NCBI GenBank assembly: GCA_964639615.1
Contig: CAZXHH010000001.1
Coordinates: 207,247 to 271,246 of the forward strand
Origin: Candidatus Woesearchaeota archaeon
GTDB taxonomy: Archaea; Nanobdellota; Nanobdellia; Pacearchaeales; GW2011-AR1
Reading direction: 5' to 3'
Length of the DNA: 64,000 nt
The notes under the pieces: model-generated
Databases searched by the model: none
What the model saw: only the letters and a program-made list of their open reading frames with translations
What the model was told of the DNA's origin: nothing
Translations under genes and position numbers: made by a program
Shown: positions 3,294 to 9,697 of the stretch, piece by piece
How the letters are laid out: the number at the start of each line of letters is the position of its first letter
How positions within the stretch are numbered: position 1 is the stretch's first letter

Positions 3294-3776
3294 ATGAATT
3301 CGCTACTATTAGCAATCTTACTTACAATACTACCTATAACTGAATTAAGAGCAGGGCTTCCTTTAGCAATTTCTTATGCAATTGAGAACAACATTCCTAT
3401 CTTTTTAATTTTCATACTCATATTGCTGATAAATATTCTTATTATTTTTATTATATTTTTATTTTTAGATTTTATTCATAAATATTTAATGAAAGTAGGA
3501 TGGTACTCTAGATTATTTAATCATATTATTAATAAATTTAGGAAAAAAGTAGATAAATTCGAGGAGAAAAACAAGCAAACTTGGTTTTGGGGACTAGTCC
3601 TATTTGTTGCTATCCCTCTTCCTGGAACAGGTGCTTGGAGTGGCTGCTTATTGGCTTGGCTGTTAGGATTAGATAGAAAAAAGAGTCTATTAGCAATAAG
3701 TTTAGGGGTTTTAATTGCAGGAATTCTTATTTTGGCTGCAACACTAGGATTTGTGAAATTTCTTAGTGTGTTTTGA
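3294..3776 (+). CDS. Small multidrug export-like (COG2426-type) membrane protein
   Basis: Motifs LPITELRAGLP and LVLFVAIPLPGTGAWSG; hydrophobic. Confidence 0.8.
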   Translation: MNSLLLAILLTILPITELRAGLPLAISYAIENNIPIFLIFILILLINILIIFIIFLFLDFIHKYLMKVGWYSRLFNHIINKFRKKVDKFEEKNKQTWFWGLVLFVAIPLPGTGAWSGCLLAWLLGLDRKKSLLAISLGVLIAGILILAATLGFVKFLSVF

Positions 3777-4322
3777 AATAGCTTTTATGTCTGTATAAAA
3801 TGGAATATCCATTATTTCAAATTTCCTTACTTCAATAAACCAAATTAGTACAACTATAACAATACTTCCAATATACCAAGTTAATTTATGGCTTATATCG
3901 AATATATTTGGTTTTGTTAAGACTATTATAGATAAAGTAATAATTCTCAGAACATTAACTAATAAGAAAGATGAAAATGCAAACGCAATCATTTTAAGCC
4001 TTTTTACAAATTTTACATTCGGTACAGAGAGATTAAAAATTAAAAGAAGATAGTAAGCAGAACCTGCAATACATGCATCAATTACCTTTATTGACGCCCC
4101 ATTAATTACGATTAAATCCCCTGAAAGTGAAGCTTGGAAGATTAAACTCAAAACAAAATAAACAGGATAGATTGTTAATGGTGTGAATATTAAATAAAAA
4201 ATCCAAAAATTTGGAATTGCTGTAATAAGAAGCACTCCGTATCTTAAAATAATTGAATAAACAAATTCTTTCCATGAATTATTTATCTTAAAATTTTTCC
4301 CTTTCTTCCTCTTTTTAATCAT
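3744..4322 (-). CDS. Archaeosortase/exosortase-family transpeptidase (pacearchaeosortase-like)
   Basis: Multi-TM protein with Cys (DACIAG), Arg (NVLRI) and His (ISHKLTW) catalytic triad pattern. Start moved to Met65 of the track ORF because the 5' extension runs antisense into the next gene. Confidence 0.8.
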   Translation of the reverse strand: MIKKRKKGKNFKINNSWKEFVYSIILRYGVLLITAIPNFWIFYLIFTPLTIYPVYFVLSLIFQASLSGDLIVINGASIKVIDACIAGSAYYLLLIFNLSVPNVKFVKRLKMIAFAFSSFLLVNVLRIITLSIIVLTKPNIFDISHKLTWYIGSIVIVVLIWFIEVRKFEIMDIPFYTDIKAISKHTKKFHKS

Positions 4323-4399
4323 TGAATAAAAAACAAAAAGATGTTTAAATAGTTGGTGTTGAATCTTATAATTAAGATTTTTACATATTAAATTGCCTC

Positions 4400-4428
4400 T
4401 TGCATGCATAATCTTTATATGCATGCAA
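4400..4428. promoter_or_regulatory. Perfect 11-bp inverted repeat, candidate operator
   Basis: TTGCATGCATA-N7-TATGCATGCAA immediately upstream of TATA-like ATTTAAAG (4433-4440) of the RelA/SpoT gene. Confidence 0.6.
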
Positions 4429-4460
4429 ACATATTTAAAGCATGCGATATTGATAATGGC

Positions 4461-5522
4461 ATGGTATGGACTAAACCTATTTATGGTAAAGCGAAGGTCG
4501 ATCGAGCAGGACATATTCTTATAGACGAGAATTTAACGGAGGAAACAAAAGAAGAAGCCTTAACAATTCTTAATAATTGGCGTTCTTCTCATGCTTACCC
4601 TATGAATACCTTTCAAGCACGATTAAGGCAGATGTCAAAAAAAGTTGATGAAAATGCAATTGTGGTTCAGAGATTAAAAAGAGTTCCTTCAATAATAAAA
4701 AAGCTTAAAAGAGATCAAACAAAAACAATGAGCTTATCTCAAATGCAAGATATAGCTGGGTGTAGGTCTGTATTGTTGGATGTAAATAAAGTGAATCAAC
4801 TAACTGAAATTTACAGGAAAAGCCGTGGGCTAAAACATAAAAAACTCCGAGAAAAAGATTATATAAAAAATCCTAAAAAAGATGGATATAGAAGTATACA
4901 TCTAATTTATAGATATAAAAGTGATAAGATAAAAACCTATGATGGTTTACTTATTGAAATTCAAATTAGAAGTAAGATACAGCATGCTTGGGCAACTGCT
5001 ATAGAGATAGTTGATTTATTCACAAAGCAGGCAATTAAATCAAATGAAGGGGAAGAAGAATGGAAAGAATTTTTTAGATTAGTTAGTTCAGCATTTGCAA
5101 AAATGGAAAATCAGAACGAAGTTGAAGGGACGCCTAAAGATAATACCGAACTTTATATTGCGATAAAAGATAAAGTAGATAAATTAAAAATTTTTTCAAA
5201 AATGAAAAATTGGTCGCAAGCATTAAAGGTTATAGAGCCAAAACTTAAAGAATTAAATTTCTTCTTACTTGAATTAGATGTATCTGAGGAAACTAATGCA
5301 AGATTAAGTATTAGAGGTTATCCTGAAGGTGCCGAATCTATTGCAACAGAACATTATCTAGAAGCTGAAAAACTAAGGGGAGGAAACCCTGACAAGGATG
5401 TTGTTCTTGTTGGTGCGAAATCTGTTGAAGAATTAAAAAAAGCATATCTTAATTATTTTGCAGATTCTGAAGAATTCTTAAAATACTTAAATAGTTATTT
5501 AGAGAAAAAAGGAAAATTATAA
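4461..5522 (+). CDS. RelA/SpoT synthetase-domain protein with C-terminal extension (CapRel-like fused toxSAS-antitoxin)
   Basis: Motifs QRLKRVPSI, MQDIAGCR, DYIKNPKKDGYRSIHL, EIQIRS, QHAWA; C-terminal VLVGA..LKKAYLNYF. Start chosen at MVWTKP, 20 nt after the TATA box. Confidence 0.85.
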   Translation: MVWTKPIYGKAKVDRAGHILIDENLTEETKEEALTILNNWRSSHAYPMNTFQARLRQMSKKVDENAIVVQRLKRVPSIIKKLKRDQTKTMSLSQMQDIAGCRSVLLDVNKVNQLTEIYRKSRGLKHKKLREKDYIKNPKKDGYRSIHLIYRYKSDKIKTYDGLLIEIQIRSKIQHAWATAIEIVDLFTKQAIKSNEGEEEWKEFFRLVSSAFAKMENQNEVEGTPKDNTELYIAIKDKVDKLKIFSKMKNWSQALKVIEPKLKELNFFLLELDVSEETNARLSIRGYPEGAESIATEHYLEAEKLRGGNPDKDVVLVGAKSVEELKKAYLNYFADSEEFLKYLNSYLEKKGKL

Positions 5523-5532
5523 ACTTGAAATT

Positions 5533-7128
5533 TTATTTTCTAGATAATCTTATTGCAATAACAATTATTAAAACTACAAGAACTACATTCAAAGCAACAA
5601 TTCCCCAGATGTAGTTTTTGCTTCCACTGAAGACATTTCCTAATAATCCGCTATCTTCTATTTCAACCTGAACAGGCTGTGTAGTTATAAGTTCTTTATC
5701 AGATGCAAGAACATTAAGCGTGAATAGTTTAACTCCTGAAACATCTCTATTAACAGTGAATGTTAGTACAACATCCTCAGATTGACCAGCAGCAAGAGTT
5801 AATTCTTTTGTAGCAGGTTCAACAGCTGATGCCCATTCTGAATAATCTGCAGCATTTAATGTGTAAGTTTCAACATTGCTTCCTGTATTTGTTACAGTTG
5901 TTTTTACAACTAAATCTCTGCCAGCTTTTGCACTAGATTCTAAAACAGCATTAACTGTAGCTCCAGCAACAAAGCATCCTCCCTGAACTTTTAGTGTTTC
6001 AGTGAATGTAGCCTTTTTATCATCATCATTCTTGTAAACATCTCCGTCTTCATCAAGAACAGTAAATACAATTGGATAATTCTTTTCTTCAGCATCTGCA
6101 GGAACATTGAATGCAAAATTGAAATCTGTGCTGTCAAAAGCGTCTATATCTTCTAAATCAACTGTTTGGTCGATTCCCAATTCTTTATTGAAAACTTTAA
6201 CAGTTATTCCTTCTTGGTCATCAGAACCTATATTCCAAGCTTCTGCTGAAATTTGAACTTCTGAATTACACTGAACAGATTCAGGTAACTGGAAATTATT
6301 AAGCATAACGAAGTCATCATCAATTGTTAAAGTAGCTTCTTCTGAATCGCTTGCACAAGTTTTTTGACCTTCATATGTACCATCAGCAATTTCTCCTGTT
6401 GCTCTTACATAGAATATATAATCACCATCACTCAAATCTTCTAAATTTTCATCTAAATCTTCATCAAGTTTAAATGTAAACACTAAATCTTCTCTTTCAT
6501 CAGCATCTAAATCGAAATCCTCATCTTCATCTAATTCGATTGCCCATTCTTTTGATTTAGTATCATATAATCCCCATTCAACAACAACATTATCTATATC
6601 CTCATCTCCTGAATTTTCAACTCTTACTTCAACACTAATTGTGTCAAATATATACCAATCTGTATCCTTCCCAAAACCTTCAGTAACATCTACATTTCTA
6701 ACTGTAACTTTTAAATCTCCTTTATTATCAAATTGACAAAATTCTGATTCTGAAAATGGAATTGTTTTAGTAACTGTTGGGCTTGTAGTACCTGTAGCAG
6801 TTAAAGTAGTTTGATATTGTTCTGCGAAATCAAAAGCAAATCCAGATTCAATAGTATAAGTAACTGTTACTGGAGTGTCAGTTGTTACCAATGCTGGAGC
6901 AGGAACACTAAAATCAATAGTCTTTCCTTCATAAGCTATATCATTAACTGAAAATGTAACTGTTTCTCCACCAACAACATCAGTAGTTGCAAAGAATGTA
7001 AAATTTCCACTTGTATGTGAGAGTGTGCTTGGGAAACCAGTTAAAGTAAGTGTAGCACTTGAAAATGCTGTTAAAACTATTAATGTTAGAACGCTTACAA
7101 TCAAAAGTGATAATCTTTTTGCTTCCAT
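5533..7128 (-). CDS. Acidic Ig-like (CARDB-type) surface protein / putative S-layer-associated protein with C-terminal TM anchor
   Basis: N-terminal signal peptide; repeated V.V.N.G...E Ig-like strands; ends in a TM helix plus RLSRK. Confidence 0.75.
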   Translation of the reverse strand: MEAKRLSLLIVSVLTLIVLTAFSSATLTLTGFPSTLSHTSGNFTFFATTDVVGGETVTFSVNDIAYEGKTIDFSVPAPALVTTDTPVTVTYTIESGFAFDFAEQYQTTLTATGTTSPTVTKTIPFSESEFCQFDNKGDLKVTVRNVDVTEGFGKDTDWYIFDTISVEVRVENSGDEDIDNVVVEWGLYDTKSKEWAIELDEDEDFDLDADEREDLVFTFKLDEDLDENLEDLSDGDYIFYVRATGEIADGTYEGQKTCASDSEEATLTIDDDFVMLNNFQLPESVQCNSEVQISAEAWNIGSDDQEGITVKVFNKELGIDQTVDLEDIDAFDSTDFNFAFNVPADAEEKNYPIVFTVLDEDGDVYKNDDDKKATFTETLKVQGGCFVAGATVNAVLESSAKAGRDLVVKTTVTNTGSNVETYTLNAADYSEWASAVEPATKELTLAAGQSEDVVLTFTVNRDVSGVKLFTLNVLASDKELITTQPVQVEIEDSGLLGNVFSGSKNYIWGIVALNVVLVVLIIVIAIRLSRK

Positions 7129-8926: not shown

Positions 8927-8987
8927 TTTATATTATTTATAATAATAAATTACAAAATGGGTTTTTAAATCATTCGGAGAGTAAAAA

Positions 8988-9061
8988 TGGGACTACCCGG
9001 ATTTGAACCGGGATCGCGAAGTCCCAAACCTCGAAGGCTAACCAGGTTACCCCATAATCCC
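8988..9061 (-). tRNA. tRNA-Pro (TGG), no encoded CCA
   Basis: Acceptor GGGATTA/TAGTCCC, anticodon arm CGAGG-TTTGGGA-CTTCG, T-loop GGTTCAAATCC. Confidence 0.95.
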
Positions 9062-9697
9062 AAAATTATTTTTATACTCTTCATTGAAAAAAGGGGCAAA
9101 ATCTTTTATAAACTTATGGTTATCTTCAGTTATTATTCTAAATCTTAGTTCTTTAACCTTAGCGCCATCTTTTCTAATCTTTCTATCATAAATTCCAATA
9201 GGTGTAGTTCTGATTTTTTTAGATTGAATAATTTTAATAATCTCATTGACAAATTTTATTCCATCCTTCAACAAATAATCTGCCTTACTTATATGAAATA
9301 TGATTCTTGGGTTGTTCCTATCATTTTCTTTCATAGAACCTTCACAAAAATAAGCGATTTTCACAAATTCTCTCGCAAAAATTTTATTATTTTTTATCCA
9401 ATCTGGGAATTTGTAAGAAGTTATAGTTTTGCACCCTTTTGGAACGCCTAATTCTTCCAATTCTTTACATAGTTTGAAATTGAACACTCGATATTTATGG
9501 GTCTTAAATCGACCTGCTCCACCATCTCCAACATAAAATTTTCCCTTTACCTTGAATTTTCTTTGAACAATTTTATCGAGTTGTTTCAAAATATCTAGAT
9601 TATTTGAAGAAAAGTAAAAACATTTTAAAGTATTATAGAGATGTCCATCAAAAAATAAATAAGAAATTATTCTGACTAAGTCTAAATCTTTTTTCAT
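9047..9697 (-). CDS. Free-standing LAGLIDADG homing-endonuclease-like protein
   Basis: Two LAGLIDADG-like helices (RIISYLFFDGHL; EFVKIAYFCEGSM); own TATA-like box upstream; last 5 codons overlap the tRNA-Pro 5' end. Confidence 0.75.
   Translation of the reverse strand: MKKDLDLVRIISYLFFDGHLYNTLKCFYFSSNNLDILKQLDKIVQRKFKVKGKFYVGDGGAGRFKTHKYRVFNFKLCKELEELGVPKGCKTITSYKFPDWIKNNKIFAREFVKIAYFCEGSMKENDRNNPRIIFHISKADYLLKDGIKFVNEIIKIIQSKKIRTTPIGIYDRKIRKDGAKVKELRFRIITEDNHKFIKDFAPFFNEEYKNNFGIMG

What the first reader, a model, noticed from the sequence alone, without database searches (positions are those of the whole stretch)
4461..5522. CapRel-like fused toxin-antitoxin (anti-viral toxSAS) in an archaeon
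Seen: a 353-aa protein with all RelA/SpoT synthetase motifs (RLKR..S, QDIAGCR, DYI..PK.DGYRSIH, EIQIRS, QHAWA), no hydrolase/TGS/ACT domains, and a C-terminal domain ending DVVLVGAKSVEELKKAYLNYF (YxxY at 5445-5456). Known: CapRel proteins (e.g. CapRel-SJ46) are single-chain toxSAS-antitoxin fusions of similar length. Their C-terminal YxxY motif blocks the ATP site until a viral capsid protein binds, and the released toxin pyrophosphorylates tRNA 3'-CCA ends. Archaea generally lack a stringent response. Inference: a horizontally acquired anti-virus abortive-infection system in a DPANN archaeon, placed inside the S-layer/sortase locus.
Basis: partly seen in the sequence, partly recalled or inferred. 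Interest (0 to 1): 0.85.

Follow-up and report, generated by a model that had tools for sequence, protein, structure and literature searches.

The report
CapRel-type toxin-antitoxin gene in DPANN archaeon
A 353-residue gene in a tiny (DPANN/Woesearchaeota-type) archaeon is a full-length relative of bacterial CapRel, a self-inhibited enzyme that blocks protein synthesis when a virus infects. It arrived as a small mobile cassette, and it is a new member of a known family rather than a new kind of system.

Summary

It is a full-length fused CapRel homologue. The best solved-structure match is CapRel-SJ46 (E 5e-41, residues 8-347). Profile comparison gives probability 100. The AlphaFold model matches PDB 7ZTB (TM 0.68-0.70). 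The C-terminal domain modelled alone matches only CapRel chains significantly. The SJ46 residues R79, R116, Y155, V338, L339, Y352 and Y355 are invariant in this family, and A351 is nearly so.

PADLOC's candidate family PDC-S33 matches both this protein and SJ46, so the family is already modelled.

Horizontal acquisition is supported. A close relative (Spt5 93%, SepF 94%) has the same gene order with no gene between the PACE-CTERM S-layer gene and the pacearchaeosortase. The nearest CapRel copies (79-87%) sit in a distant genome (one measured) and in unrelated contexts, often beside an IS6-type transposase.

The cassette carries its own promoter with clade-specific GCATGC palindromes.

RelA/SpoT genes in DPANN were already reported, read as ppGpp enzymes. 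Antiviral function, tRNA targeting and the trigger are inferred, not shown.

Verdict: new member of a known kind, moderate interest.

The parts
4398..4460 (+). Promoter/operator stretch that travels with the gene. It holds three GCATGC palindromes (4402-4407, 4421-4426, 4440-4445) bracketing a TATA-like box ATATTTAAA (4431-4439). The expected transcript is leaderless or nearly so.
   Evidence: DNA homology to orthologous loci L001, L002, L005, L006 and L008 begins at 4398-4400. Three of the window's eight GCATGC sites lie within these 44 bp. Paired sites at about -116/-98 and -60/-41 occur in all eight loci of the 70-87% clade and in none of 67 more distant loci. The window lacks the distal pair.
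4461..5522 (+). Coding sequence of the fused CapRel-type toxSAS toxin-antitoxin protein (353 aa plus stop).
   Evidence: PADLOC PDC-S33 5.6e-121, full length. PDB 7ZTB/9ERV E 5e-41. phrog_4773 4.6e-100. AF2 model pLDDT 87.8, pTM 0.85.
4461..5222 (+). N-terminal helices, toxSYNTH (RelA/SpoT synthetase) catalytic domain and linker ('anchor') helices, residues 1-254. The Pfam RelA_SpoT core is residues 70-179 (4668-4997). The ATP-adenine arginines are R71 (4671-4673) and R102 (4764-4766). The G-loop tyrosine is Y143 (4887-4889).
   Evidence: Pfam hit. Residue mapping onto SJ46 R79, R116 and Y155 comes from the HMMER alignment and PMC9712102. All three residues are invariant in alignment A1.
5223..5420 (+). 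Pseudo-zinc-finger sensor/antitoxin domain, residues 255-320. It has three beta strands (267-273, 281-287, 312-318) with a helix (289-306) between the second and third, and contains no cysteines.
   Evidence: Secondary structure of the AF2 models. The topology matches the description of the SJ46 pseudo-ZFD. Domain-only Foldseek gives CapRel chains as the only significant hits. It is the least conserved region among distant homologues: 0.42 identity against 0.65 for the catalytic core.
5421..5519 (+). Hinge and C-terminal helix, residues 321-353. It includes the autoinhibitory YxxY motif, Y329-L-N-Y332 (5445-5456).
   Evidence: This stretch aligns with SJ46 LKKAYPNYF (Y352/Y355). Y329, N331, Y332 and F333 are invariant and A328 nearly so. 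V315 and L316 (= SJ46 V338/L339, at the end of the preceding pseudo-ZFD part) are also invariant.
3744..4322 (-). Left flank of the insertion site, not part of the system: the pacearchaeosortase gene. The listed ORF runs to 4514, but homologues are about 176 aa, so the real start is at or below 4322.
   Evidence: NCBIfam NF033505, 208 bits against a cutoff of 80. Homologue lengths.
5533..7128 (-). Right flank of the insertion site, not part of the system: the PACE-CTERM putative S-layer protein gene. It is convergent, and its stop codon lies 10 bp from the CapRel stop.
   Evidence: NCBIfam NF033506, 410 bits against a cutoff of 110. In L163-L166 this gene lies directly next to the sortase gene, with a 180-270 bp spacer.

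Best explanation
The gene encodes a single-chain, self-inhibited toxin-antitoxin enzyme of the fused CapRel family.

Shown here by homology and modelling:
- The N-terminal RelA/SpoT-type domain keeps all ATP-binding and G-loop residues.
- The C-terminal domain has the CapRel pseudo-zinc-finger fold, followed by the conserved YxxY hinge. In CapRel-SJ46 that hinge plugs the adenine pocket between the two arginines.

Inferred from CapRel-SJ46:
- At rest the protein is closed and harmless.
- When a protein made by an infecting archaeal virus (by analogy a major capsid protein) binds the pseudo-ZFD, the enzyme opens.
- It then transfers pyrophosphate from ATP onto tRNA 3'-CCA ends and stops translation, aborting the infection.

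Shown here for the genomic history:
- The gene is a roughly 1.13-kb promoter-plus-ORF cassette inserted between a pacearchaeosortase gene and its PACE-CTERM S-layer substrate gene.
- It was acquired horizontally, most probably from another DPANN archaeon.

Inferred for the transfer route: possibly as an IS6-type translocatable unit whose transposase was later lost.

The GCATGC palindromes flanking its TATA box suggest transcriptional repression by an unidentified DNA-binding factor (inferred).
For: Family membership:
- PDB phmmer gives CapRel-SJ46 chains 7ztb_A/9erv_A at E 5e-41 over residues 8-347. RelP/RelQ-type SAS score E 4e-15 or worse and cover only the catalytic core.
- hhalign of the 35-sequence profile against SJ46 gives probability 100, E 2e-45 and 325 aligned columns.
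- Both this protein (5.6e-121) and SJ46 (8e-86) match PADLOC PDC-S33 end to end.

Structure:
- The full model has pLDDT 87.8. Its top Foldseek hits are 7ZTB and 9ERV, E 4.5e-24, TM 0.68/0.70, 355 columns.
- The C-terminal domain alone has pLDDT 89. It matches only CapRel chains significantly (E 1.9e-5, TMq 0.68).

Functional residues:
- SJ46 R79, R116, Y155, V338, L339, A351, Y352 and Y355 correspond to R71, R102, Y143, V315, L316, A328, Y329 and Y332.
- All are invariant in the family except A328, which is nearly invariant. Their mutational roles are described in PMC9712102.

Integrity:
- dN/dS is 0.06-0.10 for the six orthologue pairs where it could be computed, and all eight orthologues have no stop codons.

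Mobility:
- L163 (Spt5 93%, SepF 94%, L11 78% identical to the window) and L164-L166 have the same gene order but no gene between the PACE-CTERM and sortase genes.
- The closest CapRel copies (79-87%) are in different contexts. One of them, L004, shares flanking housekeeping genes for comparison, and its Spt5 and L11 are only 48% and 40% identical. L059 is equally distant by housekeeping genes, yet its CapRel is 53% identical.
- DNA homology is confined to 4398-5524.
- An IS6-type transposase, or a remnant of one, lies divergently upstream in L001, L003, L004, L005 and L008.
- L001 and L008 share a 4.4-kb block of IS6 transposase, CapRel, EcoRI-type methylase and a GmrSD_N/HNH nuclease.

Link to viruses:
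- phrog_4773 matches full length at 4.6e-100.
- 133 IMG/VR contigs carry relatives.
- The best cultured-phage hit is the CapRel of Salmonella phage SJ46.
Against: - No experiment exists for any archaeal member. Identity to the characterised SJ46 protein is only about 30%.
- Kurata et al. (10.1101/2021.04.30.441581) state that no sequence signature separates tRNA-targeting toxSAS from nucleotide-pyrophosphorylating ones. The substrate therefore rests on subfamily membership alone.
- The immediate neighbours in 80 genomes (150 genes, mostly the two adjacent genes) are mostly housekeeping genes. Only two methylases and six IS-type DDE transposases stand out, so there is no general defence-island signal.
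- Within the 70-87% clade the sensor domain is as conserved as the rest of the protein (0.80 identity; dN/dS 0.05-0.24). That is not the diversifying pattern expected of an arms-race sensor.
Confidence: 0.72

Rival explanations
1. A CapRel-fold enzyme with a non-defence, physiological role in DPANN cells. It would be a reversible brake on translation or growth, for example on loss of the host cell or on nutrient stress. The C-terminal domain would sense a conserved cellular ligand rather than a viral protein.
For: - The sensor domain is under strong purifying selection in the close clade.
- The gene mostly sits alone among housekeeping genes.
- RelA/SpoT-annotated genes are reported in 19-69% of genomes of four DPANN phyla, which is unusually high for a single defence gene (PMC8407392).
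- It recurs near the Spt5-L11 cluster in several lineages.
Against: - A closely related genome lacks it at the syntenic site.
- Its phylogeny is discordant with housekeeping genes and with taxonomy.
- It is associated with IS6 elements and, in L001 and L008, with restriction-modification-type genes.
- It belongs to a family common on phage contigs.
Confidence: 0.13
2. A small alarmone synthetase that makes (p)ppGpp or (pp)pApp. This is how DPANN RelA/SpoT genes have been annotated. The C-terminal domain would act only as a regulatory module.
For: - The Pfam RelA_SpoT domain and the NCBIfam GTP diphosphokinase YjbM model both match the catalytic core.
- The published annotation describes an alarmone enzyme.
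- No sequence signature distinguishes substrate classes.
Against: - The NCBIfam scores are far below the cutoffs (70.9 bits against 320).
- The protein is full-length CapRel-like, including the antitoxin domain and the YxxY motif. The characterised members CapRel-SJ46 and M. tuberculosis AB308 CapRel inhibit translation, and SJ46 has been shown to pyrophosphorylate tRNA.
- No hydrolase partner is seen beside it in this window or among the neighbours of 80 loci.
Confidence: 0.1
3. A selfish stabilisation (addiction) module of a mobile element, or a decaying passenger gene with no current function.
For: It is associated with IS6 transposases. The distal part of the conserved promoter is missing in the window.
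Against: - A single-chain toxin-antitoxin cannot act by differential decay of two products.
- The ORF is intact, all catalytic and autoinhibitory residues are kept, and dN/dS is below 0.1.
- The proximal operator pair and the TATA box are retained.
Confidence: 0.04

Closest known systems
CapRel-SJ46 (Salmonella phage SJ46; PDB 7ZTB, 9ERV; Zhang et al. 2022, PMC9712102)
   Same: - Single chain of about 350-373 aa.
- N-terminal toxSYNTH domain with the two adenine-binding arginines and the G-loop tyrosine.
- Cysteine-free pseudo-zinc-finger domain with the same strand/helix order.
- C-terminal LKKAYxNYF hinge, with the interface residues V-L and A conserved.
- The two proteins align end to end.
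   Different: - Only about 30% identical.
- It lacks the SJ46 insertions around residues 85-95 and in the pseudo-ZFD loops.
- The host is an archaeon, and the gene sits in the chromosome between housekeeping and surface-protein genes rather than in a prophage.
- It uses an archaeal TATA promoter with GCATGC palindromes.
- The trigger and substrate are untested.
PADLOC candidate family PDC-S33 and PHROG phrog_4773
   Same: Both profiles match the protein over its whole length (5.6e-121 and 4.6e-100). SJ46 CapRel also matches PDC-S33 (8e-86), so PDC-S33 is in effect the fused-CapRel family.
   Different: Neither profile carries a functional name. PDC-S33 has no description in the library, and no paper mentioning it was found. 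phrog_4773 is labelled 'unknown function'.
RelA/SpoT genes reported in DPANN genomes (Li et al. 2021, PMC8407392)
   Same: Probably the same gene family. It was reported in 41.7% of Woesearchaeota, 69% of Diapherotrites, 21.3% of Pacearchaeota and 19% of Nanoarchaeota, and was predicted to be of bacterial origin.
   Different: That paper reads them as (p)ppGpp stringent-response enzymes. The evidence here places this gene in the fused CapRel toxSAS family instead. Whether every gene counted in that paper is CapRel-like was not checked.
Housekeeping small alarmone synthetases RelQ/RelP (SAS1/SAS2; PDB 5DEC, 6EWZ)
   Same: They share the synthetase core fold. Foldseek gives E about 1e-9 and rmsd about 3.1-4.7 A over about 180-210 columns.
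   Different: They are about 200-230 aa, lack the C-terminal antitoxin/sensor domain and the YxxY motif, and make (p)ppGpp. Sequence similarity is much weaker (59 bits or less, against 144 bits for CapRel).

Membership tests
Fused CapRel (toxSAS toxin-antitoxin) | RelA/SpoT-type synthetase (toxSYNTH) domain with intact ATP-adenine arginines and G-loop tyrosine (SJ46 R79, R116, Y155) | tested here: met
   Pfam PF04607 at 2e-19. R71, R102 and Y143 align to these residues and are invariant in 35 homologues.
Fused CapRel (toxSAS toxin-antitoxin) | Single polypeptide of about 350-375 aa with no hydrolase, TGS or ACT domain and no separate antitoxin gene | tested here: met
   RelA_SpoT is the only Pfam domain found. 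The neighbours are a sortase and an S-layer gene, on the opposite strand.
Fused CapRel (toxSAS toxin-antitoxin) | C-terminal antitoxin/sensor domain with the pseudo-zinc-finger fold plus anchoring helices | tested here: met
   The model of residues 196-353 alone (pLDDT 89) matches 7ztb_A, 9erv_A and 7ztb_B and nothing else at E<0.1. The domain contains no cysteines.
Fused CapRel (toxSAS toxin-antitoxin) | Conserved YXXY neutralisation motif and docking-interface residues (SJ46 Y352, Y355, A351, V338, L339) | tested here: met
   Y329, Y332, V315 and L316 are invariant and A328 is nearly invariant.
Fused CapRel (toxSAS toxin-antitoxin) | Closer to CapRel than to any other RSH/SAS subfamily | tested here: inconclusive
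   The protein is clearly closer to CapRel-SJ46 than to RelP, RelQ or long RSHs: 144 bits against 59 or less, supported by Foldseek and PDC-S33. The subfamily HMMs and tree of Jimmy et al. (PhRel, FaRel2, PhRel2 and others) were not available, so placement against the sister group PhRel is untested. The fused architecture argues for CapRel.
Fused CapRel (toxSAS toxin-antitoxin) | N-terminal domain is toxic and the C-terminal domain neutralises it; YXXY mutants are constitutively toxic | not testable with these tools
   Requires expression experiments.
Fused CapRel (toxSAS toxin-antitoxin) | Pyrophosphorylation of tRNA 3'-CCA ends | not testable with these tools
   Requires biochemistry. No sequence signature for the substrate exists.
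Fused CapRel (toxSAS toxin-antitoxin) | Activation by direct binding of a viral protein; abortive-infection phenotype | not testable with these tools
   No cultured host or virus is available.
Anti-phage defence gene (guilt by association) | Enrichment next to known defence genes or on mobile elements and prophages | tested here: inconclusive
   In favour: IS6 transposase, EcoRI-type methylase and GmrSD/HNH nuclease in L001 and L008, and 133 viral contigs carrying relatives. Against: the 150 immediate neighbours scanned across 80 loci are mostly housekeeping genes.
Housekeeping small alarmone synthetase (RelP/RelQ type) | Stand-alone synthetase domain of about 200-230 aa scoring above the curated family cutoffs | tested here: not met
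   NF053588 scores 70.9 bits against a cutoff of 320. An extra C-terminal region of about 170 residues is present.
Long RSH (Rel/RelA/SpoT) | [quoted passage not shown] | tested here: not met
   Only the synthetase domain is present. TIGR00691 scores 30.9 bits against a cutoff of 499.

The most novel reading that the evidence does not exclude
This would be one copy of a large, archaea-dominated CapRel clade that circulates as a promoter-plus-gene cassette.

- 68 of the 80 nearest species-level genomes are archaeal by record title. Most are DPANN, with Methanoperedens and Methanosarcinales also present, and CPR bacteria are nested inside the clade.
- The published prevalence of RelA/SpoT genes (up to 42-69% of genomes in some DPANN phyla) and the strongly conserved sensor domain point to one of two readings. 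It could be a principal innate immune sensor of ultra-small episymbiotic cells, recognising a conserved viral or host-derived protein. Or it could be a domesticated translation brake with its own GCATGC-operator regulation.

Either reading would make it the first toxSAS system with a defined role in Archaea. It would also overturn the current 'stringent response' annotation of these genes.
Probability: 0.2. Interest if true: 0.65.

Novelty: new member of a known kind. Interest (0 to 1): 0.4.

Why it matters
- CapRel is a well-understood example of a bacterial immune protein that directly senses a viral structural protein. All experimental work so far has been in bacteria and their phages.
- A complete, selectively maintained CapRel in a DPANN archaeon, with hundreds of archaeal relatives, indicates that this sensing logic also operates in Archaea. 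It offers a handle for finding the still poorly known viruses of DPANN archaea, by screening their capsid proteins as triggers.
- It corrects an annotation. RelA/SpoT genes in DPANN genomes have been read as evidence of a (p)ppGpp stringent response. At least this clade is far more likely a tRNA-targeting toxin-antitoxin.
- The empty-site comparison gives a clean example of a 1.1-kb single-gene defence cassette moving between very small genomes.

Tried and rejected
- **Alternative start codons 4404 and 4419.** Rejected. They lie inside or beside the GCATGC palindromes upstream of the TATA box, and homologues start at MxWTKP.
- **Closed versus open state of the model.** A Foldseek search of BFVD, done to find a predicted closed-state CapRel for comparison, returned only partial RelA/SpoT hits and no full-length CapRel. 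The rmsd of 9.7 A to the open crystal form, against 4.8 A for the C-terminal domain alone, is compatible with a different domain arrangement but is not a test.
- **Defence-island enrichment.** Scanning 150 neighbours with PADLOC and Pfam gave mostly housekeeping families, so this argument is weak here.
- **Conserved synteny with the Spt5-L11 cluster.** Homologues lie within about 8 kb of this cluster, or within the region syntenic to this window, in about 11 of 80 loci. Insertion points differ, related loci are not independent, and the excess over chance is about two-fold. It was not pursued as a functional link.
- **Bacterial donor.** A rough NJ tree puts phage-contig sequences basal and the archaeal clade derived. 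The tree is distance-based, built on a biased top-80 sample and unsupported by bootstraps, so only 'acquired from another DPANN archaeon' is claimed for this copy.
- **Literature on PDC-S33.** None was found.
- **Partner hydrolase (SAH) in the window.** None lies adjacent.
- **The 216-aa ORF at 9047-9697.** By eye it looks LAGLIDADG-like, but it has no Pfam or PDB sequence match.
Full report
**Observation**

The ORF is real. The ORF listing gives an open frame at 4404..5522 (+). The YxxY motif (Y329, Y332) falls at 5445-5456.

The start at 4461 is supported in two ways. The N-terminus MxWTKP is conserved in 35 homologues, most of which are 349-360 aa long. A conserved TATA-like box lies about 25 bp upstream, and the other in-frame ATGs sit upstream of that box, inside GCATGC palindromes.

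Pfam detects only the RelA_SpoT synthetase domain (residues 70-179, E 2e-19). No HD, TGS or ACT domain is found. NCBIfam models for RelQ-type and long Rel enzymes match only the core, and score far below their cutoffs.

**What it is**

Sequence comparison with all PDB chains puts CapRel-SJ46 (7ZTB, 9ERV) first, at E 5e-41, aligned over residues 8-347 of 353. The alignment includes the C-terminal LKKAYLNYF against SJ46 LKKAYPNYF. Housekeeping SAS enzymes follow at E 4e-15 or worse and cover only residues about 63-181. A profile of 35 homologues aligns with SJ46 at probability 100, E 2e-45, over 325 columns.

The numbering of chain 7ztb_A reproduces the residue numbers in Zhang et al. 2022. On that basis:
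- The adenine-binding arginines R79 and R116 correspond to R71 and R102.
- The G-loop Y155 corresponds to Y143.
- The autoinhibitory residues V338, L339, A351, Y352 and Y355 correspond to V315, L316, A328, Y329 and Y332.

All are invariant in the family alignment except A328, which is nearly invariant.

An AlphaFold2 model of the whole protein (pLDDT 87.8, pTM 0.85) has the CapRel structures as its best PDB matches: E 4.5e-24, TM 0.68/0.70, 355 columns. RelQ and RelP match the N-terminal half only.

To test it, residues 196-353 were modelled on their own (pLDDT 89). The only significant PDB matches are the three CapRel-SJ46 chains (best E 1.9e-5, TMq 0.68, 162 columns, rmsd 4.8 A). The next hit has E 0.24. 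The criterion is not met.

The predicted order of strands and helices, and the absence of cysteines, fit the published pseudo-zinc-finger description.

**Already-modelled family**

PADLOC's candidate family PDC-S33 matches this protein end to end (5.6e-121). It also matches the SJ46 sequence (8e-86), so PDC-S33 is in effect the fused CapRel family. PHROG phrog_4773 ('unknown function') also matches full length (4.6e-100).

**Distribution**

The protein search found 4464 relatives at E<1e-5. The top 65 or so (60-87% identical) are mostly unnamed; the few with source names are Woesearchaeota and one Micrarchaeota. Below them lies a broad shelf at 51-57% that includes other DPANN lineages and a Sungbacteria (CPR) protein.

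A scan of one genome per GTDB species found at least 530 genomes with a relative. Of the best 80, 68 are archaeal by record title:
- DPANN lineages: Woese-, Pace-, Nano-, Micr-, Aenigm-, Iain- and Nanohalo-archaeota.
- Methanoperedens and Methanosarcinales.

The remaining 12 are mostly CPR bacteria.

In IMG/VR, 133 viral contigs carry relatives at 34-53% identity. Among cultured phages the best and only full-length hit is the SJ46 CapRel, at 29.8%.

A rough neighbour-joining tree rooted on SJ46 shows the viral-contig sequences as a basal grade. The archaeal clade is derived, CPR bacteria are nested within it, and archaeal taxonomy is scrambled. This is indicative only.

**How it got here**

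The flanking genes are a pacearchaeosortase (NF033505, 208 bits) and a PACE-CTERM putative S-layer protein (NF033506, 410 bits), that is, a sortase and its likely substrate. Further along lie SepF, prefoldin beta, L37ae, tRNA-Pro, L11 and Spt5.

Contigs carrying the most similar sortases with usable flanks (L163-L166) have the same gene order. L163, the longest, reads Spt5, L11, L37ae, prefoldin, SepF, a membrane protein, (an extra 273-aa gene absent from the window), PACE-CTERM protein, sortase, small-multidrug-export protein. There is no gene between the PACE-CTERM gene and the sortase, only 180-270 bp of spacer.

L163 is a close relative of the window's genome: Spt5 93%, SepF 94%, prefoldin 81%, L11 78%.

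By contrast, the closest CapRel copies (79-87%) sit in unrelated contexts. Only L004 retains comparable housekeeping genes, and there CapRel is 80% identical while Spt5 is 48% and L11 is 40%. L059 is equally distant by housekeeping genes (Spt5 47%, L11 47%), yet its CapRel is only 53% identical. This discordance, together with the empty site, shows horizontal acquisition.

DNA similarity to the orthologous loci begins at 4398-4400 and ends at the stop codon. The transferred unit in the window is therefore about 1.13 kb: promoter plus ORF.

In five of the eight closest loci an IS6-family transposase, or a frameshifted remnant of one, lies divergently about 110 bp upstream. L001, the window's nearest relative, and L008 share a 4.4-kb block of transposase, CapRel, EcoRI-type adenine methylase and a GmrSD_N/HNH nuclease. 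An IS6-type translocatable unit is a reasonable vehicle, but that is inference. No transposase remains in the window.

**Regulatory region**

Three of the window's eight GCATGC sites lie within 44 bp (4402, 4421, 4440), bracketing the TATA-like box.

All eight loci of the 70-87% clade have paired sites (TTGCATGC, then 11-13 bp, then GCATGCAA) at about -60/-41 and -116/-98 from the ATG. None of 67 more distant loci has any GCATGC in the 160 bp upstream. The sites stay invariant although synonymous sites in the gene are close to saturation (pS 0.55-0.88), which suggests selection on them.

The window copy has lost the distal pair. What binds these sites is unknown.

**Selection**

dN/dS against the eight orthologues is 0.06-0.10 overall, for the six pairs where synonymous sites were not saturated. 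For the pseudo-ZFD it is 0.05-0.24.

Across distant homologues the pseudo-ZFD is the least conserved region (0.42 identity against 0.65 for the core), as reported for bacterial CapRels. Within the close clade it is as conserved as the rest of the protein (0.80).

**Mechanism**

Shown here:
- Fold, domain order, catalytic and autoinhibitory residues, and integrity of the gene.
- Mobility and the insertion site.

Inferred from CapRel-SJ46 (PMC9712102):
- A closed resting state, with the YxxY hinge between R71 and R102.
- Opening when a viral protein binds the pseudo-ZFD.
- Pyrophosphorylation of tRNA 3' ends, translation arrest and abortive infection.

Points against, or untested:
- The substrate cannot be read from sequence.
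- The immediate neighbours scanned in 80 genomes are mostly housekeeping genes, so guilt by association is weak outside L001 and L008.
- The conserved sensor could mean a conserved trigger, or a non-viral ligand.

**Comparison with the literature**

- Atkinson et al. 2011 found very few RSH proteins in archaea, and listed capRel only for bacteria.
- Kurata et al. 2021 note that translation-inhibiting toxSAS subfamilies occur in 'even some archaea'.
- Zhang et al. 2022 do not mention archaea.
- Li et al. 2021 (PMC8407392) reported RelA/SpoT genes in 69% of Diapherotrites, 41.7% of Woesearchaeota, 21.3% of Pacearchaeota and 19% of Nanoarchaeota genomes. They predicted a bacterial origin and interpreted the genes as (p)ppGpp stringent-response enzymes.
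- No paper in the searchable library links CapRel with DPANN archaea.

The gene's presence in DPANN is therefore known, and the family is already captured by defence and phage profile libraries. What is added here is the specific assignment to fused CapRel, the evidence for cassette-like transfer with an empty site, and the clade-specific operator.

**Verdict**

The gene is a new (archaeal) member of a known kind. Interest is moderate (0.4): useful for archaeal virus-host biology and for correcting an annotation, but not surprising to a specialist in defence systems.

Noticed in passing
window 4402-4445; L001-L008 upstream regions: There is an array of GCATGC palindromes, in TTGCATGC-N11-13-GCATGCAA pairs, around the TATA box of the CapRel gene. 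It is conserved in all nine copies of the 70-87% clade and absent upstream of 67 more distant homologues. The window copy lacks the distal pair. It looks like an operator for an unknown DNA-binding factor.
   Followed up: partly
window 9047-9697 (-), beside tRNA-Pro 8987-9062: A 216-aa ORF lies between tRNA-Pro and the L11 gene and overlaps the tRNA by a few bases. It has no counterpart in the closely related syntenic contig L163, where L11 and L37ae are 143 bp apart. By eye it has two LAGLIDADG-like motifs (YLFFDGHL, AYFCEGSM), but it has no Pfam or PDB sequence match. It may be a second small insertion in this region.
   Followed up: partly
L001 6749-11166 and L008 6755-11106: The two genomes share a 4.4-kb block (75% nucleotide identity) of IS6-family transposase, CapRel, EcoRI-type adenine methyltransferase and a GmrSD_N plus HNH nuclease. 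This is a compact mobile defence islet in two Woesearchaeota-type genomes.
   Followed up: partly
window 5533-7128 (-) versus L163 4192-5820: The PACE-CTERM S-layer protein is only 49% identical between the window and L163. Its neighbours SepF and Spt5 are 93-94% identical and L11 is 78%. The surface protein is evolving much faster than the rest of the locus.
   Followed up: no
L004, L018, L028, L029, L035, L041, L056, L059, L067, L073, L080: In about 11 of 80 genomes the CapRel homologue lies inside the region syntenic with this 64-kb window (Spt5-L11, an FtsZ-like gene, the ribosomal protein cluster), but at different insertion points. For example, in both L004 and L059 it lies between Spt5 and the FtsZ-like gene. 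This may be a preferred region or simply the compactness of DPANN genomes.
   Followed up: partly
L004 9171-9389 (+): A 72-aa HicB/UPF0150-like antitoxin gene lies immediately downstream of the CapRel homologue. The Pfam hits are weak, with E about 1e-4.
   Followed up: no
phage record FR725450.1 (Nitrososphaera provirus Pro-Nvie1), hit H17: An archaeal (thaumarchaeal) provirus encodes a protein with an N-terminal Rel/Spo-like domain. It is 34% identical to residues 65-178 only. This is another RelA/SpoT-type gene linked to an archaeal virus.
   Followed up: no
window 3744-4514 (-): The mechanically listed 256-aa ORF overlaps the CapRel start. Homologous pacearchaeosortases are about 176 aa, so the real start is at or below 4322 and the overlap is an ORF-calling artefact. 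The public gene call of 221 aa (P0121, locus L162) is probably also too long.
   Followed up: yes
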